From Escherichia virus TH41: a DNA stretch of 64,000 nt. Below are positions 1,855 through 45,349 of the stretch, one piece after another. The notes beneath the pieces are model-generated. The model worked only from the letters and a program-made list of their open reading frames with translations. It did no database searches and had not been told where the DNA came from. Where the stretch lies: the sequence record MT446412.1. One strand, written 5' to 3'. The translations under genes and the position numbers were made by a program. How positions within the stretch are numbered: the first letter of the stretch is position 1; every line of letters begins with the position of its first letter.

Positions 1855-1953
1855 TATGGATGCTCTTATTACGGTATTTTGGGCCGGAGTTGCTTTATTC
1901 GGATTGTTGTTAGTGCTAAGTTGCACTGCTAAACTATTAGGATATTAATAAAT

Positions 1954-1978
1954 ACCCTTATCTAATAATGGTAAGGGT
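1954..1978 (+). promoter_or_regulatory. Stem-loop (ACCCTTA / TAAGGGT, 11-nt loop) immediately upstream of gene 49 start
   Basis: Inverted repeat seen directly; ends 5 nt before ATG 1984. Confidence 0.4.
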
Positions 1979-1983
1979 TTATT

Positions 1984-2457
1984 ATGTTGTTGACTGGCAA
2001 ATTATACAAAGAAGAAAAACAAAAACTTTATGATGCACAAGCTGGTAAGTGTCCAATTTGCCACCGTGATTTGGACTCCGATGTTCAGGCCAACCATCTT
2101 GACCATGACCACGAATTGAACGGGCCAAAAGCTGGTAAGGTTCGCGGGTTACTATGCAATCTGTGCAATGGAACAGAAGGACAAATGAAGCATAAGTTCA
2201 GCCGTTCGGGTCTAAAAGGTCGCAATGTTGACTACCTGGAATGGTTAGAGAGTTTGCTTGTCTATCTGAAATCTGATTATACCGAAAACAATATTCACCC
2301 TAATTTTGTGGCAGACAAAGCCAAAGAGTTCGGTCGTCTGGGGAAAGAAGAAATGATTCGGGAAATGCTTTTGAACGGTATGACTTATAATGAATCTGAC
2401 ACAAAAACACAATTAATGGCTTCATTTAAGAAGCAGCTTAGAAAGAGTTTAAAATGA
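1984..2457 (+). CDS. 49: Endonuclease VII (Holliday junction resolvase), gp49
   Basis: 157 aa; MLLTGKLYKEEKQK..., Cys cluster CPICHR...CNLCN, near-identical layout to T4 endo VII. Confidence 0.92.
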   Translation: MLLTGKLYKEEKQKLYDAQAGKCPICHRDLDSDVQANHLDHDHELNGPKAGKVRGLLCNLCNGTEGQMKHKFSRSGLKGRNVDYLEWLESLLVYLKSDYTENNIHPNFVADKAKEFGRLGKEEMIREMLLNGMTYNESDTKTQLMASFKKQLRKSLK

Positions 2458-4271
2458 CAATTGAAAACGAAATTGAAGGATTGATTCATAAAACTAATAA
2501 AGACCTTTTAAACGAGAATGCTAATAAAGATTCTCGTGTTTTTCCAACTCAACGGGACCTTATGGCTGGTATTGTATCTAAACACATTGCCAAAAATATG
2601 GTCGCGTCTTTTATTATGAAAGCACATGAAAGCGGAATTATTCATTTCCATGATATTGATTATTCCCCTGCTCTTCCATTTACTAATTGCTGTTTAGTAG
2701 ATTTAAAAGGAATGCTTGAGAACGGGTTTAAGCTCGGTAATGCACAGATTGAAACTCCTAAATCAATCAGTGTTGCTACTGCAATTATGGCACAAATTAC
2801 TGCGCAGGTTGCTTCCCATCAATATGGCGGAACGACTTTTGCGAATGTAGATAAAGTACTTTCTCCTTATGTTAAACGTACCTATGCGAAACATATTGAG
2901 GACGCGGAAAAATGGCAAATCACTGATGCGTTGAATTATGCTCAATCTAAAACAGAAAAAGACGTATATGATGCATTCCAAGCTTATGAATATGAAGTAA
3001 ATACTCTCTTTAGTTCAAATGGTCAGACTCCTTTTGTGACAATTACATTTGGTACTGGAACTGACTGGACTGAACGAATGATTCAGAAAGCAATTCTGAA
3101 AAATCGTATTAAAGGTCTTGGTCGTGATGGGATAACTCCTATTTTCCCTAAACTTGTTATGTTTGTTGAAGAAGGTGTTAATCTTTATAAAGACGACCCG
3201 AACTATGATATTAAGCAGCTTGCTTTAGAGTGTGCAAGCAAAAGAATGTATCCTGATATCATTTCAGCTAAGAATAACAAAGCTATCACTGGTTCATTTA
3301 TTCCTGTTTCTCCAATGGGTTGCCGTAGTTTCTTGGGCGTATGGAAAGATTCGACTGGTAATGAAATTCTTGATGGACGTAATAATCTTGGTGTTGTAAC
3401 ACTGAATCTTCCTCGCATTGCATTAGATTCTTATATTGGAACACAGTTCAATGAACAGAAATTTACTGAATTGTTCAATGAGCGAATGGATTTATGTTTT
3501 GAAGCTTTGATGTGTAGAATTAGTTCCTTAAAAGGAGTTAAAGCGACTGTTGCTCCTATTCTTTATCAAGAAGGTGCATTCGGGGTTCGTCTTAAACCTG
3601 ATGACGATATAATTGAGTTATTTAAAAACGGTAGAAGTTCAGTATCCCTGGGATACATCGGTATTCACGAATTGAATATTCTTGTCGGTCGTGATATTGG
3701 GCAAGAAATTTTGACTAAAATGAATGCTCGTCTTAAGCAGTGGACTGAAAGAACCGGATTTGCTTTTAGCTTGTATTCTACACCTGCTGAAAACCTGTGT
3801 TATCGCTTCTGTAAACTCGATACCGAAAAATATGGAAGTGTAAAAGATGTTACTGATAAAGGCTGGTACACTAACAGTTTCCATGTTTCAGTAGAAGAAA
3901 ATATTACTCCGTTTGAAAAGATTTCTCGTGAAGCCCCATATCATTTCATTGCGACAGGCGGTCACATTTCTTATGTTGAACTTCCTGATATGAAAAATAA
4001 CTTAAAAGGTCTTGAGGCTGTATGGGATTATGCTGCACAGCATTTAGATTATTTTGGTGTTAATATGCCAGTGGATAAATGTTTTACATGTGGAAGTACC
4101 CATGAAATGACTCCTACTGAAAACGGATTTGTTTGTTCTATTTGTGGAGAAACTGACCCTAAAAAGATGAACACAATAAGAAGAACATGCGGCTATTTGG
4201 GAAATCCGAACGAACGCGGATTTAATCTCGGCAAAAATAAAGAAATCATGCATAGGGTTAAACACCAATGA
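2454..4271 (+). CDS. nrdD: Anaerobic ribonucleoside-triphosphate reductase NrdD (class III), uninterrupted
   Basis: 605 aa; C-terminal glycyl-radical motif RRTCGYLG and Cys cluster CFTCGS...CSICG. Confidence 0.95.
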   Translation: MTIENEIEGLIHKTNKDLLNENANKDSRVFPTQRDLMAGIVSKHIAKNMVASFIMKAHESGIIHFHDIDYSPALPFTNCCLVDLKGMLENGFKLGNAQIETPKSISVATAIMAQITAQVASHQYGGTTFANVDKVLSPYVKRTYAKHIEDAEKWQITDALNYAQSKTEKDVYDAFQAYEYEVNTLFSSNGQTPFVTITFGTGTDWTERMIQKAILKNRIKGLGRDGITPIFPKLVMFVEEGVNLYKDDPNYDIKQLALECASKRMYPDIISAKNNKAITGSFIPVSPMGCRSFLGVWKDSTGNEILDGRNNLGVVTLNLPRIALDSYIGTQFNEQKFTELFNERMDLCFEALMCRISSLKGVKATVAPILYQEGAFGVRLKPDDDIIELFKNGRSSVSLGYIGIHELNILVGRDIGQEILTKMNARLKQWTERTGFAFSLYSTPAENLCYRFCKLDTEKYGSVKDVTDKGWYTNSFHVSVEENITPFEKISREAPYHFIATGGHISYVELPDMKNNLKGLEAVWDYAAQHLDYFGVNMPVDKCFTCGSTHEMTPTENGFVCSICGETDPKKMNTIRRTCGYLGNPNERGFNLGKNKEIMHRVKHQ

Positions 4272-4738
4272 ATTATGATAGAATTTATCCTTGCGATTTT
4301 GTGAATGGCCCTGGTTGTAGGGTCGTTCTTTTCGTTACAGGTTGTTTGCATAAATGCGAAGGGTGTTATAATAAATCAACATGGAATGCTAGAAATGGTG
4401 TTCCATTCACTGGTGAAACACTAGAACAATTAATTGAATGTTTGAATAATGATTATATAGAAGGATTAACTATAACCGGAGGAGACCCTCTCTATCCTGA
4501 TAACCGAGATGTTATTCACTCTGTGGTTCAAACTATTAAAAATCTTTATCCCAATAAAAGCATTTGGATGTGGACAGGATATAAGTTTGAAGATATTAAA
4601 CAACTAGAAATGCTTAAATATGTTGATGTTATTATTGATGGGAAGTATGAGAAAAATCTTCCGACCAAAAAACTGTGGCGAGGGTCAGATAATCAGCGAC
4701 TTTGGTCAAATACCGATGGGGTGTGGAAACATGATTAA
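4268..4738 (+). CDS. nrdG: Anaerobic RNR activating protein NrdG (radical SAM)
   Basis: 156 aa; Cys cluster GCLHKCEGCYN; immediately downstream of nrdD with ATGA overlap. Confidence 0.9.
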   Translation: MNYDRIYPCDFVNGPGCRVVLFVTGCLHKCEGCYNKSTWNARNGVPFTGETLEQLIECLNNDYIEGLTITGGDPLYPDNRDVIHSVVQTIKNLYPNKSIWMWTGYKFEDIKQLEMLKYVDVIIDGKYEKNLPTKKLWRGSDNQRLWSNTDGVWKHD

Positions 4739-4852
4739 ATTGAATTACATTATGGGTACTATAAATGATATGATTTTTCATTTTGGTCCAGAATTTTATT
4801 CGCAGTATAGTTTAGTGCTTATCAATGCTTGGTTAATCAATTAAGGGTAAAT

Positions 4853-7057: not shown

Positions 7058-7317
7058 TGTGTCCTGCTATTGAATTACCTGAAGGTGTTGCGGTAATAGT
7101 ATCATACAAACATACGTATGCTAATGGAATTCGCCGAGCTCATAAAATTAGTCAAGGTTACTATTTACAAAGGACTTTAAATTATTTCATTTCAATGGGA
7201 TATGAATTCAGAATCTATCCTATGTGTACTAAAACCAAGTACACTAAAATCGATGCTTGGGAAGCTTGGGCGGAAGGCATGACATTAGACGAATTCCTGG
7301 ACTACTTAAATGATTAA
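7054..7317 (+). CDS. Hypothetical protein (87 aa)
   Basis: ORF track; ATGA overlap. Confidence 0.45.
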   Translation: MMCPAIELPEGVAVIVSYKHTYANGIRRAHKISQGYYLQRTLNYFISMGYEFRIYPMCTKTKYTKIDAWEAWAEGMTLDEFLDYLND

Positions 7318-7576
7318 AATAAAACTCTCTAATTACGATAAAAACTTGGAAATGATTACTATGAAAGAAGAACTCCTGAATGATGTTCGCTTTACGGGTT
7401 ATGCAGTTCAATTTAATGGTGATGGGGTTCTCCAGATTGAAGGTGACCACTTTATTATTGAATATGAATTCCACCAATATTGGTTGTATGCTAAAGATGA
7501 AGTTGGTGGGATTGATTATATTGACCAGTTTGATAAGCTTGATGATGTTTTAGAAGCTGCTCAATTGGTGTACTGA
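7310..7576 (+). CDS. Hypothetical protein (88 aa)
   Basis: ORF track; start overlaps previous stop. Confidence 0.45.
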   Translation: MIKIKLSNYDKNLEMITMKEELLNDVRFTGYAVQFNGDGVLQIEGDHFIIEYEFHQYWLYAKDEVGGIDYIDQFDKLDDVLEAAQLVY

Positions 7577-9220: not shown

Positions 9221-9394
9221 ATGACGAATTCGACGGATTTTGATAAGATTAAATCTGACAAAAACGAGATGATTCTTCAATTTGAAGCTGCTCGTATTAA
9301 AGCAGAAAATGAAGGTACTATTACCTATAAGCCTATCAAGTTCAGGTCTTCTCACGAACCTCTGTACGGTGTATTAATTGGAAAGGAAGCCTAG
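9221..9394 (+). CDS. Hypothetical protein (57 aa)
   Basis: ATG preceded by GAGG at 8-nt spacing; followed by terminator. Confidence 0.4.
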   Translation: MTNSTDFDKIKSDKNEMILQFEAARIKAENEGTITYKPIKFRSSHEPLYGVLIGKEA

Positions 9395-9407
9395 TGCTTC
9401 CTTTTTT
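9385..9407 (+). terminator. Rho-independent terminator (GGAAGC-CTAGT-GCTTCC + T6)
   Basis: Perfect 6-bp stem followed by TTTTTT. Confidence 0.7.
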
Positions 9408-9451
9408 GCTTTATATTCGGGATGATAAAATGAACCAACTGAGGAGAGTAT

Positions 9452-9595
9452 ATGGAATTATTTTTAGGATATGTCGTGTTATTCATGGCATTCTACACAT
9501 TCACAAGAGCTTGTTGGATAGGATTCTTTTCTACTCCTGACGGGTTCATTTCAGTAATTTTATTTTGCATTGCAATAACGGTGCTTGGCTTATGA
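9452..9595 (+). CDS. Hypothetical small membrane protein (47 aa)
   Basis: Strong SD GAGGAG 7 nt before ATG; hydrophobic; ATGA overlap with gene 47 start. Confidence 0.45.
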   Translation: MELFLGYVVLFMAFYTFTRACWIGFFSTPDGFISVILFCIAITVLGL

Positions 9596-19191: not shown

Positions 19192-19434
19192 ATGGAAACA
19201 TTAATTGCGGGTACTGTTGTTCTTGGTGCAGGTTCTTTCTTCCTGGCTGCACTGGCATATTTTCTGCCGTGGATTATCGCGCTACTGCGTGGAACCAAAA
19301 GTAATTGCGGAATCTTCTTTGTTAACCTCCTGTTAGGTTGGACAATGGTCGGATGGTTTATTGCATTTATCTGGGCACTCGTTGCTGAACGTAAATCAAA
19401 CGCACAAGTAATTATCATCAAGGAATCAAAATGA
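19192..19434 (+). CDS. imm: Superinfection immunity protein Imm-like (two-TM membrane protein)
   Basis: 80 aa; two hydrophobic segments, motif NLLLGWTMVGWFIAFIWAL; adjacent to gene 43 as in T4. Confidence 0.55.
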   Translation: METLIAGTVVLGAGSFFLAALAYFLPWIIALLRGTKSNCGIFFVNLLLGWTMVGWFIAFIWALVAERKSNAQVIIIKESK

Positions 19435-19574
19435 AGATAATTACAATTATTGTATTGATTGCATTTTTTAGTATGTCAATCTATTGGGCAATAATGACTC
19501 CACATATGATTCCAACTTTAATTTTGGGTTGGGTATTTTTGGGGCTCCAAGCCCGCTATGAATGTTTTAATTAG
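19431..19574 (+). CDS. Hypothetical small membrane protein (47 aa)
   Basis: ATGA overlap with imm; hydrophobic; under 60 aa. Confidence 0.35.
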   Translation: MKIITIIVLIAFFSMSIYWAIMTPHMIPTLILGWVFLGLQARYECFN

Positions 19575-19582
19575 GAAGCAAA

Positions 19583-20086
19583 ATGAAAAAGTTAGCTATC
19601 GCAGCTGTTATGCTGCTATCTGGTTGTGCTTACCAGGGTGATGTTGTTAATGCCAACGAGATTGGTAAAGCGCGAATTGCTGCAGACCGTCAGGTGCATA
19701 ATGGTTCCTTTGATTTCAAAGGTGGTACTGGACTTATCTACAAACGCGACAACAATCAATGTGGAAACAACTGCGCGAAATATGCTCAACAAGAAATTGA
19801 GTACAAACGCGAGCAAGCTGCGAAGCATGACGAAATCATTGCCAAGCTGGAAGCAGAAACCAAGCGACAAAATGACCTGGACACTGTTAACCAGATTTCA
19901 CAGGTCTGCATGTCATACATCAATATGCAGATAAACATCATGCGCGCAGAAGCTTATCAGGCAGCGGAGATGGGTTCTCCAAAAGCTAATGAGTACCGCG
20001 ATATGTATCAGCGTTCTGCTCAAAACCGTCTGAGCTATATTAATAAATGTGTAGCTAAAGAGAAAGCACGCCAAGGTATTAACTGA
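19583..20086 (+). CDS. Putative lipoprotein (167 aa)
   Basis: Signal peptide MKKLAIAAVMLLSGC with lipobox LSGC; occupies slot where T4 has gene 42 and beta-gt. Confidence 0.6.
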   Translation: MKKLAIAAVMLLSGCAYQGDVVNANEIGKARIAADRQVHNGSFDFKGGTGLIYKRDNNQCGNNCAKYAQQEIEYKREQAAKHDEIIAKLEAETKRQNDLDTVNQISQVCMSYINMQINIMRAEAYQAAEMGSPKANEYRDMYQRSAQNRLSYINKCVAKEKARQGIN

Positions 20087-20197
20087 TGTTATTATTACTT
20101 CTGATTGTTGTAACAGTAATTGGTTTGCTGCTATTAGAAAAGCGTAATAAGCATTTGGCTGAAGAAAACTGGAAATGTGGTAACGTTTACTGAGTTA

Positions 20198-20224
20198 ATT
20201 GCTCTAAAAATACAGTGATATAAT
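20198..20224 (+). promoter_or_regulatory. Candidate MotA-dependent middle promoter upstream of uvsX (TTGCTC box, 14-nt gap, TATAAT)
   Basis: TGCTC 20200-20204, TATAAT 20219-20224; same gap as gene 39 and gene 55 candidates. Confidence 0.4.
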
Positions 20225-20277
20225 TATCCTATCTTAAACCTGTGAGAAAAATATAATGGTGCCTATGGAAAAAATGA

Positions 20278-24922: not shown

Positions 24923-25216
24923 ATGAAAAAGTTATTAATCGCAGCAATTCTTACCGTAGCATCATGTGGTACAGCCCCAGTTACTGCTGGGCTTGATAAA
25001 GACCTTTGTGAGTGGTCCATGACTGCGGACCAGACTGATGTTGAACACCAGATTTATGCTGACATCATGAACATTACTAAACGTGACCACCCAGATATGG
25101 TTAAAGAAGTATCTGACCAACTGGCTTCTGGTGACGTTATGCAGTATAACTATGTTCTGTATTGCGATGCTTCATTTGACAACAGCAAGATTGTTCAATG
25201 GGTTACAGGTGAATAA
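24923..25216 (+). CDS. Putative lipoprotein (97 aa)
   Basis: Signal peptide MKKLLIAAILTVASC with lipobox VASC. Confidence 0.55.
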   Translation: MKKLLIAAILTVASCGTAPVTAGLDKDLCEWSMTADQTDVEHQIYADIMNITKRDHPDMVKEVSDQLASGDVMQYNYVLYCDASFDNSKIVQWVTGE

Positions 25217-25217
25217 A

Positions 25218-25658
25218 ATGATTAACAGAAATTTAGTTATCAAAAAACTTCGTTGTAAAAATCAAAATGCACAAGCATACAGGATGTTTTGGAGCGACGA
25301 ACCCATTCAATACCTGGGTTATTTTCTTGTTGATAGTGATAATAGAATTACGTTTGCTCATAAACTTCTTAACAAAGAATTAAACCATTGGCAAGAACTT
25401 ATTGCGGTCAAGTCTAAATTATTTTCGCGCAATACAATGCACCAATTGGTTTATTTTTTCGCTGACGGTATTCCTGACAAGGTTGAGTTTGATGGGTTTG
25501 AATTTAAAGACATCACCCCTGATAATGAATTGAATGACAGTATTGTTAATATGGGTATCCCGGGTAAGTACATCAAAAACAGTCTTTTGAAACTTCTGGA
25601 AACCCCTGTATATTCAGTTGACGACCAGATTTTTAATGCCTTCATGAAGCGAGATTAG
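25218..25658 (+). CDS. Hypothetical protein (146 aa)
   Basis: ATG preceded by GGTGA; C-terminus DDQIFNAFMKRD shared with next ORF. Confidence 0.5.
   Translation: MINRNLVIKKLRCKNQNAQAYRMFWSDEPIQYLGYFLVDSDNRITFAHKLLNKELNHWQELIAVKSKLFSRNTMHQLVYFFADGIPDKVEFDGFEFKDITPDNELNDSIVNMGIPGKYIKNSLLKLLETPVYSVDDQIFNAFMKRD
25618..25653 (+). repeat. 36-bp direct repeat, copy 1 (TTGACGACCAGATTTTTAATGCCTTCATGAAGCGAG)
   Basis: 35/36 identical to 25979-26014; 3' end of gene 25218..25658. Confidence 0.85.
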
Positions 25659-25659
25659 T

Positions 25660-26019
25660 ATGAGTTATTATAATTTTCTGAATTTTGAACTGGCGAGCAA
25701 TAATGATGGTAATGCTCATTATGAATTTCGTGAGCCACGGTTTAATCAAGCGATTGGTTATATTATCGTCAAAGATGATGTTATCATAAAGGCTCGCTCA
25801 TTTATGGTAATGAATGGACCTTATGAAGATACTCGCGGCTATCCATTTGATAAAAAGAATGTGCGCGATTGTGCAGCATGGATAACCGGAAACCCCGAAA
25901 TTGGGGTCATGATATCTACTGAAGCGAATGACATTCTGGAAGGGGTTTGGGCCAAAGCTCAAGAATCGTCTATTGCTATTGACGACCAGATTTTTAATGC
26001 CTTCATGAAACGAGGTTAA
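25660..26019 (+). CDS. Hypothetical protein (119 aa) flanked by 36-bp direct repeats
   Basis: ORF track; C-terminus DDQIFNAFMKRG. Confidence 0.5.
   Translation: MSYYNFLNFELASNNDGNAHYEFREPRFNQAIGYIIVKDDVIIKARSFMVMNGPYEDTRGYPFDKKNVRDCAAWITGNPEIGVMISTEANDILEGVWAKAQESSIAIDDQIFNAFMKRG
25979..26014 (+). repeat. 36-bp direct repeat, copy 2
   Basis: 35/36 identical to 25618-25653. Confidence 0.85.
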
Positions 26020-26627: not shown

Positions 26628-27656
26628 ATGTCATATATTGATAAAGAATTTGCGGTTAGAGCTTTATCGTATCAACCACGTTATAGAGAAGTCACCGGGA
26701 GCACATTTAAAGCAAACTGTCGTTGCAAGGTTTGTGGGGACTCCCAGAAAGATTCACACAAGGCTCGATTCTGGGCGTATACTAATCCGGCTGATGGCGC
26801 GGTTTACGTGAAATGTTTTAACTGTGACTACTCCACGCATATAAGCAAATACATAAAAGAGTTTGAGCCGGATTTACACTGGGAATATATGGTTGAGAAG
26901 TATAAGGAGAATGCCTTTGGCAGACAACGTAATGAAGTTGCCGAAACTCCGAAAGAACCAGAAAAAACTCCGGTTATCGAAGAGCTTGCTTTTTGTGAAA
27001 GACTCGATACTTTACCAGAAGCGCATCCTATAATTAAGTATGTAAAAAGTCGGTGTATTCCTAGCAATGTTTGGAACCGGTTATGGTTTACAAACAAATG
27101 GCCTGCATTAGTTAACTCCGTTAATCCTGGGACGTATAAGAATGAAACGAATGAACCACGCTTGGTTATTCCTATCTTCAACGGCAAAAAAGAAATCGAA
27201 TCTTTCCAAGGACGAGCTCTTCGCAAAGATGCACCACAAAAATATATCACAATCAAAGCTCACCCAGAAGCTTCCAAAGTCTATGGTGTAGACAAGATTG
27301 ATGAGCGCAAGCGCGTGTGGGTAATGGAAGGTCCGATTGATAGTTTGTTTATCCCTAACAGCATTGCGATAACTGGTGGAACATTGTCATTGGAAGCCGT
27401 TCCTTATCCAGAAACCAGAGTATGGGTAATGGACAACGAACCAAGACATCCGGATACGATTAAACGTATGAAGAAGCTCGTTGAAGCTGGCGAAGCTGTT
27501 ATGTTCTGGGACAATGCACCATGGCATACGAAAGACATAAATGAGATGGTTAAATCAGAAGGAGCAACCCCTGAACAAATCGAATCATATATGGCTGATA
27601 ACGTTGCCCAAGGATTGATGGCGAGAATGCGACTTTCGAAGTACGCAAAAGTTTAG
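26628..27656 (+). CDS. 61: DNA primase gp61
   Basis: 342 aa (same as T4 gp61); N-terminal zinc ribbon CRCKVCGD...CFNCDY. Confidence 0.9.
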   Translation: MSYIDKEFAVRALSYQPRYREVTGSTFKANCRCKVCGDSQKDSHKARFWAYTNPADGAVYVKCFNCDYSTHISKYIKEFEPDLHWEYMVEKYKENAFGRQRNEVAETPKEPEKTPVIEELAFCERLDTLPEAHPIIKYVKSRCIPSNVWNRLWFTNKWPALVNSVNPGTYKNETNEPRLVIPIFNGKKEIESFQGRALRKDAPQKYITIKAHPEASKVYGVDKIDERKRVWVMEGPIDSLFIPNSIAITGGTLSLEAVPYPETRVWVMDNEPRHPDTIKRMKKLVEAGEAVMFWDNAPWHTKDINEMVKSEGATPEQIESYMADNVAQGLMARMRLSKYAKV

Positions 27657-27853
27657 GAAGGGATTCCGGTAAAGTAACCAATAATAGAATGGATATGTTC
27701 CATTGTGACCTGAGGTAAGTGCACCCCTTGTGTTGCGGCGATGGGTACAACCAGTAAGTTCCACAGGAAAACATCAAGAGCTAAAAAGCCCATGATGAGC
27801 TTCTTGTCTTTCTTACTGGTTAATTTCCAAATCTGATAGAATAATGTTCCCAT
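27653..27853 (-). CDS. Small membrane protein (66 aa), paralog of 27862..28059
   Basis: Opposite strand to all neighbours; single hydrophobic helix; GGTGG SD. Confidence 0.5.
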   Translation of the reverse strand: MGTLFYQIWKLTSKKDKKLIMGFLALDVFLWNLLVVPIAATQGVHLPQVTMEHIHSIIGYFTGIPS

Positions 27854-27861
27854 AGTTCCAC

Positions 27862-28059
27862 CTATATAAGGCCGATTAATGCCAGTGAAACATCTACAAC
27901 TGATTCGAGCGCGACGACTGGTAATATAACACCATGTGCCAATGCAATAGGGGCAACAATGAAATTCCAGAGTAGAACTAAACAGAGTACCGAAAGGACC
28001 AGAATCGTTCGCTTACGACTGCCTTTGATGGCTTGAATTAGACTAGATAGTTTTAGCAT
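27862..28059 (-). CDS. Small membrane protein (65 aa), paralog of 27653..27853
   Basis: Strong SD AAAGGAGG 4 nt before ATG; ATAAATA late-promoter-like motif upstream. Confidence 0.55.
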   Translation of the reverse strand: MLKLSSLIQAIKGSRKRTILVLSVLCLVLLWNFIVAPIALAHGVILPVVALESVVDVSLALIGLI

Positions 28060-28143: not shown

Positions 28144-28662
28144 ATGGCACATTTTAACGAATGTTCTCAACTGATTGCTGGTGTTGATAAAGCTCAAGGC
28201 GCTTATGATAATGCAATTTTTGAAGGCACTGACCCACTGCAAATTATGCTTGATATGCAGAAATCGTTGCAGGTTCGTCTGGCTAAAGAAAAACCAGAAT
28301 ATAACGAACATCCTGATAACCTGGCGACTGCTGGTGAAGTTGTTACCTGGCTCCGCAACCAGAAAGATTATATTGATGATGAATTCCGTGAACTGATTAC
28401 TGCATTAGGTGGCATGTCCAATGGCGAGAAAGCTGCCTCGGCCGTATGGAAGCCTTGGAAAGCACAACATGGCGAAATGCAGCAAACCCTAATTAATGAT
28501 TTATCTCCTGAAGACCAGCTCGAAATTAAATTTGAGATGATTGATATCCTGCACTTTGTTCTGAATATGTTCCATGGCCTTGGACTGACTGCAGAAGAAA
28601 TCTTTAAATTGTATTACCTGAAAAATGCTGAGAACTTTGCTCGTCAAGACCGAGGTTATTAA
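28144..28662 (+). CDS. 56: dCTP pyrophosphatase gp56 (MazG-like dCTPase/dUTPase)
   Basis: MAHFNEC N-terminus and EIFKLYYLKNAENFARQDRGY C-terminus match remembered T4 gp56. Confidence 0.85.
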   Translation: MAHFNECSQLIAGVDKAQGAYDNAIFEGTDPLQIMLDMQKSLQVRLAKEKPEYNEHPDNLATAGEVVTWLRNQKDYIDDEFRELITALGGMSNGEKAASAVWKPWKAQHGEMQQTLINDLSPEDQLEIKFEMIDILHFVLNMFHGLGLTAEEIFKLYYLKNAENFARQDRGY

Positions 28663-28943
28663 TGGCTCGTTTAAATAAACGTCAGCTTAAGAAAGCTCGC
28701 AAGAAATATATTAACGATATAATTGAAAATGTTAATACCGAAATCTTCGTAGAACTCTTATCTAATCAACTAAAACATTTATCTAAACATGAAATTGATA
28801 TGAATACTGAAAATGCTAAAAATGTAATTGAAACTCATAATGCTTTTGCTAATGCAACAGCAGAATGGATGGCGAATCCTACTGCTGAAAATCTAGCTAA
28901 AATGACTGAAGCCAATAAAGCAGTTCAAGCCATCAAATTGTAA
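28662..28943 (+). CDS. Hypothetical protein (93 aa)
   Basis: ORF track; TAATG overlap with gene 56. Confidence 0.5.
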   Translation: MARLNKRQLKKARKKYINDIIENVNTEIFVELLSNQLKHLSKHEIDMNTENAKNVIETHNAFANATAEWMANPTAENLAKMTEANKAVQAIKL

Positions 28944-28945
28944 GT

Positions 28946-28953
28946 TATAAATA
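28946..28953 (+). promoter_or_regulatory. Late promoter TATAAATA upstream of soc
   Basis: Exact TATAAATA 31 nt before soc ATG. Confidence 0.6.
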
Positions 28954-28984
28954 CACCTGTAATTAAACAACAAAGGAGTTAATT

Positions 28985-32476: not shown

Positions 32477-33223
32477 ATGACTTTATCAAAAACCAAAACG
32501 TTGAAAGTTAAACGTCGTCTGGAACACACTCAAGCTTCCGCTAAACGCCGCGGTAAAGACTTTAACCTGGATTTTGATTATCTGGTTAATATTCTTGACC
32601 AAAAAGTTTGTGCTTATTCTGGTGAGACATTTAATAACTCTATTGAAGGTGAGAAGTTATCATTAGAGCGTTTTAACAATGATATTGGTTATATCAAGGG
32701 TAATGTTATTCCTGTTAAAAAGAAATACAATACCATGCGTTCTGATTGGTCCTTGGATGAGCTTAAACAACGTCGCGATGATGTTGCTGTAAAAATTGCT
32801 CGCCCCTCTGCCAAGAAGATTGAAAAGTTAAATCTGACTTCAGAGAAATGGGAACAGATTAAAAAGTCATATACTCATATCAAGAACATCCAGCACAAAC
32901 GTGATAATCGCGTTAAGCATTATGCTCAAATGAGTAAATCAGAGCAGTCCAAAGAAAACCAATTAAAAATGGTTGCTCTGAAGGCTCGCATTGATGGTTC
33001 CCGTGTTGCGGAAGGACATGAGCTTACTAAATTGAATGTCCTGCTCAAAGGTAATGACTGGAAAGTTACCAAGAAATTAACTGATGCTGAAACGCTTTTT
33101 GATTGCTATGATAAAATCATTCAAGGTCTTGAGCGTTTTGAGAAGATTGGTTTTATTGGTAAATTAAAACTGAAACGTGGTCTGCCTTTGAACGCGTCAA
33201 TTTTTAAACTGATTAGAGGTTAA
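32477..33223 (+). CDS. Hypothetical basic protein (248 aa); position corresponds to T4 srd
   Basis: ORF track; synteny only. Confidence 0.55.
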   Translation: MTLSKTKTLKVKRRLEHTQASAKRRGKDFNLDFDYLVNILDQKVCAYSGETFNNSIEGEKLSLERFNNDIGYIKGNVIPVKKKYNTMRSDWSLDELKQRRDDVAVKIARPSAKKIEKLNLTSEKWEQIKKSYTHIKNIQHKRDNRVKHYAQMSKSEQSKENQLKMVALKARIDGSRVAEGHELTKLNVLLKGNDWKVTKKLTDAETLFDCYDKIIQGLERFEKIGFIGKLKLKRGLPLNASIFKLIRG

Positions 33224-38981: not shown

Positions 38982-39006
38982 ACCTCCATACACAAGAGGA
39001 AAGATG

Positions 39007-40836
39007 ATGATTAATAATGAAATTAAAGTACTCTCGGACGTCGAGCATATCAAAAAACGTTCCGGGATGTATATTGGTTCCAGTTCAAATGAAGCGCATG
39101 AGCGATTCTTGTTTGGTGAATATAAGTCTGTAAGCTATGTTCCTGGTATTGTAAAACTGATTGATGAAATTATCGATAACTCTGTTGATGAAGCAATTCG
39201 CACCAGTTTTAAATTTGCCAATAAAATTGATGTTCAAATTAAAGATAATCAGATTTCGGTTTCTGATAATGGTCGTGGTATTCCTCAAGCAATGGTTACA
39301 GACCAAAACGGTGAACAAATCCCTGGCCCTGTTGCAGCATGGACTATTCCAAAAGCCGGTGGCAACTTCGGTGATGATGCTGAACGTAAAACTGGCGGGA
39401 TGAATGGTGTCGGGTCTTCTCTGACCAATATTTTCTCTGTATTGTTCACCGGGATTACCTCTGATGGAGCAAACGAAATTACTGTTAACTGCTCCAACGG
39501 TATGGAAAACAAAGGTTGGTCCACCAAGAAATCTAAGGGCAAAGGTACAACTGTTATATTTGTTCCAGATTTTAGTCACTTTGAAGAAAATAGTCTGTCC
39601 CAGATTTATCTGGATATTACATTGGACCGTTTACAGACTCTCGCGGTTGTTTATCCGGATATTCAGTTCACCTTTAATGGTAAAAAGGTTGATGGTAATT
39701 TCAAGAAGTTCTCCAAGCAATTCGGAACCGAAGTTGTTATCCAGGAAACTGATACAGTATCAATGGCTTTTACGACCAGCCCGGATGGTTTCCGTCAGTT
39801 GACTTATGTCAACAACATTCATACAAAGAATGGCGGACACCACGTTGAATGTGTTATGGATGATATCTGTGAACACCTTCAGCCTGCGATTAAGCGCAAA
39901 TATAAAGGCATCGAGGTGACCAAGGCACGAGTTAAAGAATGCCTCACCATGCTTATGTTCATCCGCGATATGAGCAACATGCGATTTGATTCCCAGACCA
40001 AGGAGCGATTGACTTCTCCGGCTGGTGAAATTCGAAATCACATTAAGATTGATGCTAAGAAAATCGCACAAGCTATTCTGAAAAATGAACCGCTGATTAT
40101 GCCGATTGTTGAAGCTGCATTGGCTCGTAAATTGGCTGCAGAGAAAGCAGCAGAGACCAAGGCGAATAAGAAAGCTTCGAAGGCCAAGGTGCAGAAACAC
40201 ATCAAGGCAAACGAATGGGGCAATGATAAGCTGGAAACGACTCTATTCCTGACCGAAGGGGATTCTGCAACTGGTCCATTTATCAAGGTTCGCGACCGTG
40301 AATTGCAAGGTGCTTATCCATTACGTGGTAAGTTTAAAAACACATGGGGTCTGAAAGCTGTTGAAGTTATGAAGAACGCTGAAGCCTTTGATGTGTGTGC
40401 AATTACTGGGTTAACGATTGGACAACCGGCCGAGAATATGAATTACCGAAACATTGCTATCATGACAGATGCGGATGTGGATGGTGTCGGTAGTATCTAT
40501 CCATCGTTATTGGCGTTTTTCAGTAACTGGCCAGAGTTGTTCCATGAAGGACGAATTCGCTTTGTGAAAACACCTGTTATTATTGCACAGCTCAAAGATA
40601 AACAAGAATGGTTCTATTCTCTTCCTGACTATGAAGAAGCTAAGGATAAACTTCCGAAGCACACCATCCGATATATCAAGGGGCTTGGTTCTCTGGAAGA
40701 TTCCGAGTACAAACGCGTATTGCTCGAACCGGTATTCGAAGTTGTTCAATTGCCCGACAACTGGAAAGAACTGTTCGAAATGCTATTCGGTAAAGATTCC
40801 CAGCAGCGTAAAGACTGGATGAATGCGACGCTATAA
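39007..40836 (+). CDS. 39: DNA topoisomerase II large subunit (GyrB-like), continuous equivalent of T4 gp39 + gp60
   Basis: 609 aa from second ATG; GHKL ATPase motifs; T4 gp39 is shorter and completed by gp60, here one uninterrupted ORF. Confidence 0.9.
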   Translation: MINNEIKVLSDVEHIKKRSGMYIGSSSNEAHERFLFGEYKSVSYVPGIVKLIDEIIDNSVDEAIRTSFKFANKIDVQIKDNQISVSDNGRGIPQAMVTDQNGEQIPGPVAAWTIPKAGGNFGDDAERKTGGMNGVGSSLTNIFSVLFTGITSDGANEITVNCSNGMENKGWSTKKSKGKGTTVIFVPDFSHFEENSLSQIYLDITLDRLQTLAVVYPDIQFTFNGKKVDGNFKKFSKQFGTEVVIQETDTVSMAFTTSPDGFRQLTYVNNIHTKNGGHHVECVMDDICEHLQPAIKRKYKGIEVTKARVKECLTMLMFIRDMSNMRFDSQTKERLTSPAGEIRNHIKIDAKKIAQAILKNEPLIMPIVEAALARKLAAEKAAETKANKKASKAKVQKHIKANEWGNDKLETTLFLTEGDSATGPFIKVRDRELQGAYPLRGKFKNTWGLKAVEVMKNAEAFDVCAITGLTIGQPAENMNYRNIAIMTDADVDGVGSIYPSLLAFFSNWPELFHEGRIRFVKTPVIIAQLKDKQEWFYSLPDYEEAKDKLPKHTIRYIKGLGSLEDSEYKRVLLEPVFEVVQLPDNWKELFEMLFGKDSQQRKDWMNATL

Positions 40837-40878: not shown

Positions 40879-41031
40879 ATGAAAAAGTGGTGGGTTACGT
40901 TGTCAAATGGCGAATACGGTTATCTGTGGGCCGATACTAAACCCCTGTTTGCATCCTTTGTCACCATTATGTGCGAGACCTGGGATGGTGAATACTATAC
41001 CGCGTATGGGCAAGTCTATAAAGTTGAGTAG
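40879..41031 (+). CDS. Hypothetical protein (50 aa)
   Basis: ATG preceded by AGGAGAAG; followed by terminator; under track cutoff. Confidence 0.4.
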   Translation: MKKWWVTLSNGEYGYLWADTKPLFASFVTIMCETWDGEYYTAYGQVYKVE

Positions 41032-41033
41032 CC

Positions 41034-41057
41034 AAAAGGACCTTCGGGTCCTTTTTT
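41034..41057 (+). terminator. Rho-independent terminator (GGACC-TTCG-GGTCC + T6)
   Basis: UUCG hairpin plus TTTTTT. Confidence 0.75.
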
Positions 41058-41060
41058 ATT

Positions 41061-41090
41061 ATGTACAAGCCATAAAAATTGCGTTAAGAT
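41061..41090 (+). promoter_or_regulatory. Early promoter ATGTAC-N18-TAAGAT
   Basis: Same architecture as GTGTAC family; ATG 41108 after GAGGTGAAAAT. Confidence 0.45.
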
Positions 41091-41107
41091 GTCCTTGAGG
41101 TGAAAAT

Positions 41108-41392
41108 ATGATTATGTCTGACGGAAGTTTAGTTAATCTACAGAATGTTGCTCGTTGTATTATGGAAGCAGGCCTGAGGAAGGTGCAGGAGCTCCCAGAT
41201 AGCGACAGGAAGCGAAGTTACTTGTTGGCTGTAAGAGCATCAGCCATGAGCATTAAGGCTGGCCAGAAGGTTCCTGAGGAGCGAATTGAAGCACTCCTTG
41301 CATTGATATACCATGGCCAAGAACATAAAGCTACCATGCGTAGTATGAGAAAAATATTACAGGAGATTGGAAATGACGAACTTCAAAGTTAA
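41108..41392 (+). CDS. Hypothetical protein (94 aa)
   Basis: ORF track. Confidence 0.5.
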   Translation: MIMSDGSLVNLQNVARCIMEAGLRKVQELPDSDRKRSYLLAVRASAMSIKAGQKVPEERIEALLALIYHGQEHKATMRSMRKILQEIGNDELQS

Positions 41393-45028: not shown

Positions 45029-45349
45029 ATGATTAACTATATGAACGTTGGCGATGAATCTATTAATGAAATTCGGTTGCATGGTAATCATGTTGCGGAT
45101 ATTGTTTATTGTGTTGATTGTCATTATGCTTCTACAAAGTCAACTGGCCGGTTATATGCGAGAGACATCATTCTTGCAACGAAAGAAGAACTTCGTAGTC
45201 TGGACCATTCTACTCTAGCCGAAAGTGCCAGAATTTATTATGGCGTCGTTCATGTAGACAAAGTTTATATTGGCAGTGATTATCAAGAGCAAGCTGAGCA
45301 AAATTCTTTGGATATTGTCGAAAAATCCGATATGTATTTTAAAGGATGA
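45029..45349 (+). CDS. Hypothetical protein (106 aa)
   Basis: ORF track. Confidence 0.5.
   Translation: MINYMNVGDESINEIRLHGNHVADIVYCVDCHYASTKSTGRLYARDIILATKEELRSLDHSTLAESARIYYGVVHVDKVYIGSDYQEQAEQNSLDIVEKSDMYFKG

What the first reader, a model, noticed from the sequence alone, without database searches (positions are those of the whole stretch)
2454..4271. nrdD is intron-free and the window lacks homing endonuclease genes
T4 nrdD carries a group I intron, and the T4 early region has several seg/mob homing-endonuclease genes. Here nrdD is a single uninterrupted 605-aa ORF, and none of the roughly 120 ORFs shows GIY-YIG or HNH signatures by eye. The variability in this genome seems driven by promoter cassettes and short-homology junctions instead.
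Basis: partly seen in the sequence, partly recalled or inferred. Interest (0 to 1): 0.25.

Follow-up and report, generated by a model that had tools for sequence, protein, structure and literature searches.

The report
Intron-free nrdD, no homing endonucleases
This stretch of a T4-like phage genome has an uninterrupted anaerobic ribonucleotide reductase gene and no selfish "homing endonuclease" genes, which is the usual state for such phages: T4 itself is the exception.

Summary
The window is the nrdC-to-gene 34 region of a Gaprivervirus (T-even) phage, 99.3-100% identical to Escherichia phage UPEC01.

- **nrdD:** 2454-4271 is one 605-aa ORF, 595/605 identical to spliced T4 NrdD.
- **Intron site:** the T4 intron position (2991|2992) is unoccupied. 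Rfam finds no group I intron in the window, but it does find the T4 intron as a control.
- **HEG searches:** Pfam on 127 ORFs, PHROGs on 89 small ORFs, tblastn with all 15 T4 HEGs and six-frame Seg/Mob HMMs found no homing endonuclease.
- **T4 sites:** all six T4 HEG positions in this interval are empty (I-TevII, mobC, mobB, segA, segF, mobA).
- **Frequency:** about 70 of 1000 phage records with this nrdD carry an intron. A published review calls T4 the outlier.

Two caveats apply to "no HNH signature".
- gp49 endonuclease VII (1984-2457), directly upstream of nrdD, is a classical His-Me finger nuclease.

Neither is a homing endonuclease. The near-identical UPEC01 genome has one Mob-type HEG outside the window.

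The parts
2454..4271 (+). nrdD, the class III (anaerobic) ribonucleotide reductase large subunit. It is one uninterrupted 605-aa ORF.
   Evidence: ORF. (Pfam NRDD 3.6e-170 full length, Gly_radical 2.4e-25). (595/605 identical to spliced T4 NrdD).
2991..2992 (+). Unoccupied group I intron insertion site (GCTTATGAAT|ATGAAGTAAAT). T4, HY03, Lv5cm and 215Ecol030PP all carry their nrdD intron exactly here.
   Evidence: The window is identical to intronless T2 from -22 to +28 around the site.
1984..2457 (+). Gene 49, endonuclease VII (Holliday-junction resolvase), a His-Me finger/HNH-superfamily nuclease. Its stop overlaps the nrdD start (ATGA). It is not a homing endonuclease.
   Evidence: PF02945 2.8e-18, PF09124 2e-24. 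Motif read.
4268..4738 (+). nrdG, the radical-SAM activase. Its start overlaps the nrdD stop (ATGA), so there is no room for mobC or segH, which sit here in T4, HY03 and others.
   Evidence: Fer4_12 6.6e-48. (junction). (mobC, SegH or segC-like genes at this junction in other phages).
4268..4288 (+). Single copy of the 21-nt sequence ATGAATTATGATAGAATTTAT. In T4 it occurs twice, at the start of mobC and at the start of nrdG, flanking mobC.
9221..9540 (+). a-gt.2-like ORF directly followed by a 47.1-like ORF. The T4 mobB (and alpha-gt) position is empty.
   Evidence: DUF5486. (PHROG hits). (T4 order). (no Mob match).
19431..20277 (+). Three small ORFs between imm and uvsX. The T4 segA (and beta-gt, 42) position holds no endonuclease.
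   Evidence: membrane or lipoprotein-like ORFs of unknown function only. (T4 order)..
28662..28984 (+). 93-aa non-nuclease ORF between gene 56 (dCTPase) and soc. The T4 segF position is empty.
   Evidence: phrog_5782..
39004..40836 (+). Single 610-aa topoisomerase II large subunit, collinear with T4 gp39 plus gp60. It has no mobA, no gene split and no 50-nt bypass element.
   Evidence: gp39 1-473 and gp60 parts contiguous at 40485/40486. (Pfam).
32477..33223 (+). srd. Its N-terminal ~100 aa has a beta-beta-alpha-Me (HNH, PacI-like) fold lacking the catalytic His and most Zn-binding Cys. The C-terminal part is helical. It is syntenic with T4 srd and is not a homing endonuclease.

Best explanation
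The window is the nrdC-to-gene 34 early/middle region of a Gaprivervirus T-even phage. Every position that carries a homing endonuclease gene or intron in the homologous T4 interval is here in its unoccupied ('empty site') state.

nrdD is an intact, intron-less class III ribonucleotide reductase gene. Its ends overlap gene 49 and nrdG by ATGA junctions, so 49-nrdD-nrdG are presumably translated as a coupled unit. That coupling is inferred from the overlaps, not shown.

The exon sequence around the intron site is the T2-type intron-minus allele. The simplest reading is that this lineage was never invaded at these sites, or regained empty alleles by recombination with intron-less relatives. This step is also inferred. 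Intron-less nrdD and few HEGs are the common condition among T-even phages, and T4 is the outlier.
For: - **Identity of the window:** (99.3-100% to UPEC01, Gaprivervirus).
- **nrdD intact:**
- **No intron RNA, with a working positive control:**
- **No HEG domain in 127 ORFs:**
- **No HEG family among 89 small ORFs:**
- **No remnant in any frame:**
- **Independent check of the HMMs:** the same T4-derived Mob HMM detects a HEG in UPEC01 outside the window at E 3e-30.
- **Six T4 HEG positions examined one by one and found empty:**
- **Frequency:** T4-type intron in 25 records and HY03-type in 44, of 1000 nrdD-matching records.
- **Flanking sequence:** identical to intronless T2 over -22..+28, while all four intron-plus alleles share G at -2 and a cluster of synonymous changes at +8..+20.
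- **Literature:** PMC2988022.
Against: - A HEG of a family absent from Pfam and PHROGs and unrelated to Seg/Mob/Tev proteins could hide among small ORFs of unknown function. A few very short ORFs had no family hit at all.
- Srd hits PHROG families labelled HNH endonuclease and has an HNH-type fold, so the window is not free of HNH-related sequence.
- Whether the empty sites are ancestral or secondary cannot be decided from these data.
Confidence: 0.93

Rival explanations
1. The window does contain a homing endonuclease, but of a family too divergent or too new to be recognised by Pfam, PHROGs or T4-derived profiles. It would be hidden among the many small ORFs of unknown function.
For: Many of the 89 small ORFs match only PHROG families of unknown function. 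A few short ORFs (for example 40907-41098 and 45048-45218) had no family hit.
Against: - Known phage HEGs are typically 140-260 aa (one search lists the T4 set). Nearly all unassigned ORFs here are under 120 aa.
- The larger unassigned ORFs match families conserved at syntenic positions in T4, unlike the patchy distribution of HEGs.
- No ORF interrupts or splits a conserved gene.
Confidence: 0.04
2. Srd is a degenerate descendant of an HNH homing endonuclease that became fixed and took on a host-takeover role. On this reading the window holds a 'fossil' HEG.
For: - PHROG hits of Srd residues ~4-160 to 'endonuclease', 'HNH endonuclease' and 'endonuclease VII' families.
- The motif CAYSGE...SLER...GY..GNV...YN is invariant in 26 homologues.
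Against: - There is no catalytic His, and three of the four Cys of the usual zinc site are absent.
- Pfam HNH and Endonuclease_7 give no hit even at E<=10.
- hhalign against gp49 is negative.
- srd is syntenic and conserved in T4 and relatives, not patchy.
- The only reported activity is stimulation of RNase E (Qi et al. 2015, as cited in PMC7430671).
- An HNH fold does not imply a homing origin. PacI is a restriction enzyme.
Confidence: 0.15
3. nrdD once carried the intron and lost it precisely, by reverse-transcript-mediated loss or by recombination with an intron-less allele, rather than never having had it.
For: - Intron-plus and intron-minus alleles coexist among close relatives, always at the same site.
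- T-even phages recombine freely (general knowledge).
Against: - The flanks carry none of the synonymous changes shared by all four intron-plus alleles. They equal T2's intron-minus sequence over 50 nt.
- All closest relatives listed match this region in one piece, so none carries the intron.
Confidence: 0.1

Closest known systems
Phage T2 49-nrdD-nrdG locus (NC_054931, intron-less, no mobC)
   Same: Same gene order and the same ATGA-type overlaps. nrdD is 95.6% identical in DNA. The sequence around the intron site is identical from -22 to +28. There is no gene between nrdD and nrdG.
   Different: Only scattered, mostly synonymous substitutions. T2 is a Tequatrovirus and the window is a Gaprivervirus.
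Phage T4 49-nrdD-mobC-nrdG locus with the I-TevII group I intron
   Same: NrdD protein is 98.3% identical. The flanking genes 49 and nrdG are the same.
   Different: T4 has a 1033-nt group IA intron encoding I-TevII at the position equivalent to 2991|2992, and mobC between nrdD and nrdG. In the wider interval T4 also has mobB, segA, segF, mobA and the split gene 39/60. The window has none of these.
Escherichia phage UPEC01 / Shigella phage SP18 (Gaprivervirus)
   Same: UPEC01 is 100% identical over 1900-4800 and 99.3% over the first 41 kb, with the same gene content. SP18 is 98.1% identical over 1900-4800.
   Different: Small replaced segments near denB and arn, a 91-bp duplication in UPEC01, and a diverged distal tail-fibre region.
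PacI-type HNH restriction endonuclease (PDB 3m7k), for the Srd N-terminal domain only
   Different: 17% identity. Srd lacks most zinc-binding cysteines, has a long helical C-terminal extension, and is known as an RNase E stimulator rather than a DNase.

Membership tests
Class III anaerobic ribonucleotide reductase NrdD | Full-length match to the NRDD family | tested here: met
   PF13597 E 3.6e-170, profile positions 1-562 of 562.
Class III anaerobic ribonucleotide reductase NrdD | C-terminal glycyl-radical domain and Cys-rich Zn ribbon | tested here: met
   PF01228 E 2.4e-25. CFTCG...CSICG and RRTCGYLG are read in the translation.
Class III anaerobic ribonucleotide reductase NrdD | Adjacent radical-SAM activase NrdG | tested here: met
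   4268-4738: Fer4_12 6.6e-48 and Radical_SAM 7.4e-7.
Group I intron (Rfam RF00028) | Covariance-model match anywhere in the window | tested here: not met
   No hit at gathering or at E<=5. The control on T4 nrdD gives 105 bits.
Group I intron (Rfam RF00028) | Extra sequence at the known nrdD insertion site | tested here: not met
   The window is collinear with spliced T4 and with intronless T2 across 2991|2992.
GIY-YIG homing endonucleases (Seg, I-TevI/II) | GIY-YIG catalytic domain in any ORF or frame | tested here: not met
   No Pfam hit. tblastn with 9 T4 GIY-YIG proteins gave a best E of 0.003. The six-frame HMM gave a best E of 0.045.
HNH homing endonucleases (Mob, I-TevIII) | HNH catalytic motif plus a Mob-like body, inserted between or within conserved genes | tested here: not met
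   No Pfam HNH or HNH_3 hit. The Mob HMM gave a best E of 0.053 in the window, against 3e-30 for the UPEC01 HEG outside the window. The junctions are empty.
LAGLIDADG homing endonucleases / inteins | LAGLIDADG or Hint domain; host proteins longer than their orthologues | tested here: not met
   No Pfam hit. NrdD matches T4 residue for residue, and the ORF lengths of gp43, gp41, UvsX and gp46 are close to those annotated in T4.
His-Me finger (HNH superfamily) nucleases | beta-beta-alpha-metal core with catalytic His and a metal-binding Asn/His | tested here: met
   Met by gp49 (1984-2457): PF02945 plus the HLDHDH...N motif. This is a resolvase, not a HEG.
His-Me finger (HNH superfamily) nucleases | The same features, applied to the Srd N-terminal domain | tested here: inconclusive
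   [not shown]

The most novel reading that the evidence does not exclude
The N-terminal domain of T4-type Srd, known only as an anti-sigma decoy and RNase E stimulator, is a His-less PacI-like HNH-fold domain. It belongs to a very large family that Pfam does not cover (14,803 representative proteins at E<=1e-3). This would mean that a phage host-takeover factor was built from a nuclease scaffold. I did not find this connection in the papers searched.
Probability: 0.35. Interest if true: 0.35.

Novelty: already known. Interest (0 to 1): 0.08.

Why it matters
For the finding itself, very little. It documents that this phage carries the ordinary, unoccupied alleles at six sites where T4 holds selfish elements, which agrees with the published view that T4 is the exception.

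Practically, it marks the window as a clean 'recipient' genotype. It has a T2-type I-TevII homing-site region, an uninterrupted nrdD/nrdG junction and an unsplit gene 39, so it could be used in mixed-infection experiments on homing and marker exclusion.

The side observation on Srd may interest people who study T4 host shut-off.

Tried and rejected
- **Rfam at relaxed threshold:** only six chance-level hits, none to a group I intron.
- **tblastn with T4 HEGs:** the best hit was segE residues 37-87, antisense inside gene 41 (E 0.003, 27% identity). I rejected it as noise.
- **mobC residues 1-14 matching the nrdG start:** this turned out to be the shared MNYDRIY N-terminus, not a remnant.
- **UPEC01 annotation 'recombination endonuclease VII' for 7310-7576:** Pfam says DUF5495 and no nuclease domain was found. 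I treated it as a mis-annotation.
- **Srd against the PDB by sequence:** only coiled-coil or chance hits.
- **hhalign of the Srd N-domain against gp49:** negative.
- **Pfam on 33 remote relatives of the Srd domain:** no HNH family.
- **Higher identity of exon 2 to T4 as a co-conversion signal:** this came from including gene 49 in the exon-1 alignment. Within nrdD, differences are spread evenly.

Full report
**What the window is.** A megablast of 1900-4800 finds Escherichia phage UPEC01 at 100% identity and Shigella phage SP18 at 98.1%. Other hits include phages VR20 and VR25. UPEC01 is classified as Straboviridae, Tevenvirinae, Gaprivervirus. Against UPEC01, the window is 99.3% identical over its first 41 kb. 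After that it diverges in a few short segments and in the distal tail-fibre genes. The gene order read from ORFs, Pfam and the UPEC01 annotation is as follows:
- on the + strand: nrdC, 49.x, pin, 49, nrdD, nrdG, nrdH, 55, 47, 46, rpbA, 45, 44, 62, regA, 43, imm, uvsX, 40, 41, dmd, 61, 56, soc, mrh, srh, modB, modA, srd, dda, dexA, motB, goF, 39, rIIA, rIIB, denB, ndd, 52, motA, arn, asiA;
- on the - strand: t, 38, 37, 36, 35, 34.

**The observation.**
- The ORF at 2454..4271 is 605 aa. It matches Pfam NRDD end to end (E 3.6e-170) and has a glycyl-radical domain.
- Aligned to T4, the window matches exon 1 up to base 2989 and exon 2 from base 2992. The T4 intron of 1033 nt lies between them.
- Splicing T4 in silico at the group I-type boundary (exon U | ... 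G | exon) gives a protein 595/605 identical to the window's.
- The equivalent insertion point in the window is between 2991 and 2992.
- Rfam finds nothing in the window at gathering thresholds, and no group I intron even at E<=5. The same search on T4 nrdD returns RF00028 at 105 bits, so the negative is meaningful.

**Homing endonuclease search.** I called 127 ORFs on the coding strands and scanned them all against Pfam at E<=0.01.
- No GIY-YIG, HNH, HNH_3, NUMOD, LAGLIDADG or Hint family appeared.
- PHROGs on the 89 small or unassigned ORFs gave no homing endonuclease family.
- To catch pseudogenes in any frame, I took all 15 annotated T4 HEG proteins and ran tblastn against the window. The best E was 0.003, a 51-residue antisense match inside gene 41.
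- Profile HMMs built from the nine GIY-YIG and the Mob proteins, run on all stop-to-stop pieces of six frames, gave nothing below E 0.045.
- The same Mob HMM finds a HEG it was not trained on in UPEC01, outside the window, at E 3e-30. The method can therefore see such genes in this lineage.

**Site-by-site comparison with T4.** The homologous T4 interval holds six HEGs. The window's state at each position is:

| T4 element | T4 position | State in the window |
|---|---|---|
| I-TevII | nrdD intron | No intron |
| mobC | nrdD/nrdG | nrdD stop and nrdG start overlap (ATGA) |
| mobB | alpha-gt/alpha-gt.2 | a-gt.2 homologue directly followed by 47.1 and 47; no alpha-gt |
| segA | uvsX/beta-gt | Only small membrane-type ORFs between imm and uvsX |
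| segF | 56/soc | A 93-aa non-nuclease ORF |
| mobA | 39/60 | One 610-aa ORF collinear with gp39 and gp60; junction at 40485/40486; no 50-nt bypass |

**How common this is.**
- The window's nrdD matches 1000 phage records, 690 of them at 90% identity or more.
- The T4 intron is found nearly full-length in 25 records, many of them T4 stocks.
- A second intron variant (HY03 type, about 66% identical to T4's, with its own I-TevII-like ORF) sits at exactly the same site. It occurs in 44 records.
- A short ORF-less version also exists (215Ecol030PP).
- So roughly 7-10% of T-even nrdD genes are interrupted, and about 90% look like the window's.

**The empty intron site.** Over -22 to +28 around the insertion point, the window is identical to intron-less T2. 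All four intron-containing alleles (T4, HY03, Lv5cm, 215Ecol030PP) share a G at -2 and a cluster of synonymous changes between +8 and +20. This is what is expected if intron-plus alleles carry co-converted or self-protective flanks, and it places the window firmly in the intron-minus class. Whether I-TevII would cut this sequence was not tested.

**Where 'no HNH signature' is too strong.**
- *gp49.* Gene 49 (1984-2457) overlaps the nrdD start and is endonuclease VII. It has two CxxC pairs and HLDHDH...N, and it matches PF02945 and PF09124. This is a textbook His-Me finger nuclease, but it is a junction resolvase.
- *Srd, sequence evidence.* Srd (32477-33223) matches its own PHROG (E 2e-97) and also families labelled 'endonuclease' (2e-19), 'HNH endonuclease' (1.7e-16) and 'endonuclease VII' (4e-8). 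Pfam gives nothing, even at E<=10.
- *Srd, conserved motif.* In 26 homologues the motif SA..R.K.F.L...CAYSGE...[ST][LF]ER...GY..GNV..VK.KYN is invariant or nearly so. It has no His and only one conserved Cys.
- *Srd, family size.* A profile of the domain retrieves 14,803 representative proteins at E<=1e-3. The 33 members I checked have no Pfam HNH hit.
- *Srd, conclusion.* srd is present at the same place in T4. Its reported role is stimulation of RNase E (Qi et al. 2015, as cited in PMC7430671). I therefore read it as a nuclease-derived scaffold and not as a homing endonuclease.

I found no direct support for promoter cassettes as drivers of variability. One short-homology junction is visible, but in T4. 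There mobC begins with the same 21 nt as nrdG (ATGAATTATGAYAGAATYTAT), so the repeat brackets mobC, and the window has the single copy at 4268-4288. The nearly identical UPEC01 genome carries one Mob-type HNH gene between uvsW and uvsW.1, outside the window, so HEGs still contribute something in this lineage.

**Verdict.** Interest is low.

Noticed in passing
[not shown]
   Followed up: yes
window 4268-4288; L003 (T4) 43538-43518 and 42916-42896: T4 mobC starts with the same 21 nt (MNYDRIY) as nrdG, so a direct repeat flanks mobC in T4 and the window has one copy. All T4 mob genes begin ATGAATTAT, which suggests insertion or recombination through this short homology.
   Followed up: partly
window 2970-3020; L006, L007, L008, L009: All intron-plus nrdD alleles (two diverged intron types plus an ORF-less one) use the same insertion site. 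They share G at -2 and a cluster of synonymous changes at +8..+20. The intron-minus window and T2 are identical there.
   Followed up: partly
L010 36027-36731 (UPEC01 record 118085-118684), outside the window: The near-identical UPEC01 genome has one Mob-type HNH homing endonuclease gene between uvsW and a small uvsW.1-like ORF, so the lineage is not HEG-free.
   Followed up: partly
window 19192-20277, 9221-9592, 27653-28059: Gene 42 (dCMP hydroxymethylase), beta-gt, alpha-gt and dam are not at their T4 positions. Two small minus-strand membrane-protein ORFs sit between 61 and 56 where T4 has dam. No thymidylate-synthase-like domain occurs anywhere in the window.
   Followed up: no
window 7310-7576: The matching UPEC01 CDS is annotated 'recombination endonuclease VII', but the protein is DUF5495 with no nuclease domain. 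This is probably an annotation error.
   Followed up: partly
window 41052-41142: A 91-bp stretch upstream of rIIA.1/rIIA is present once in the window and as a tandem duplicate in UPEC01.
   Followed up: no
window 25083-26019: Two adjacent ORFs (191 and 119 aa) end with nearly the same C-terminal peptide (DDQIFNAFMKRD / DDQIFNAFMKRG). This suggests a local duplication or a shared module.
   Followed up: no
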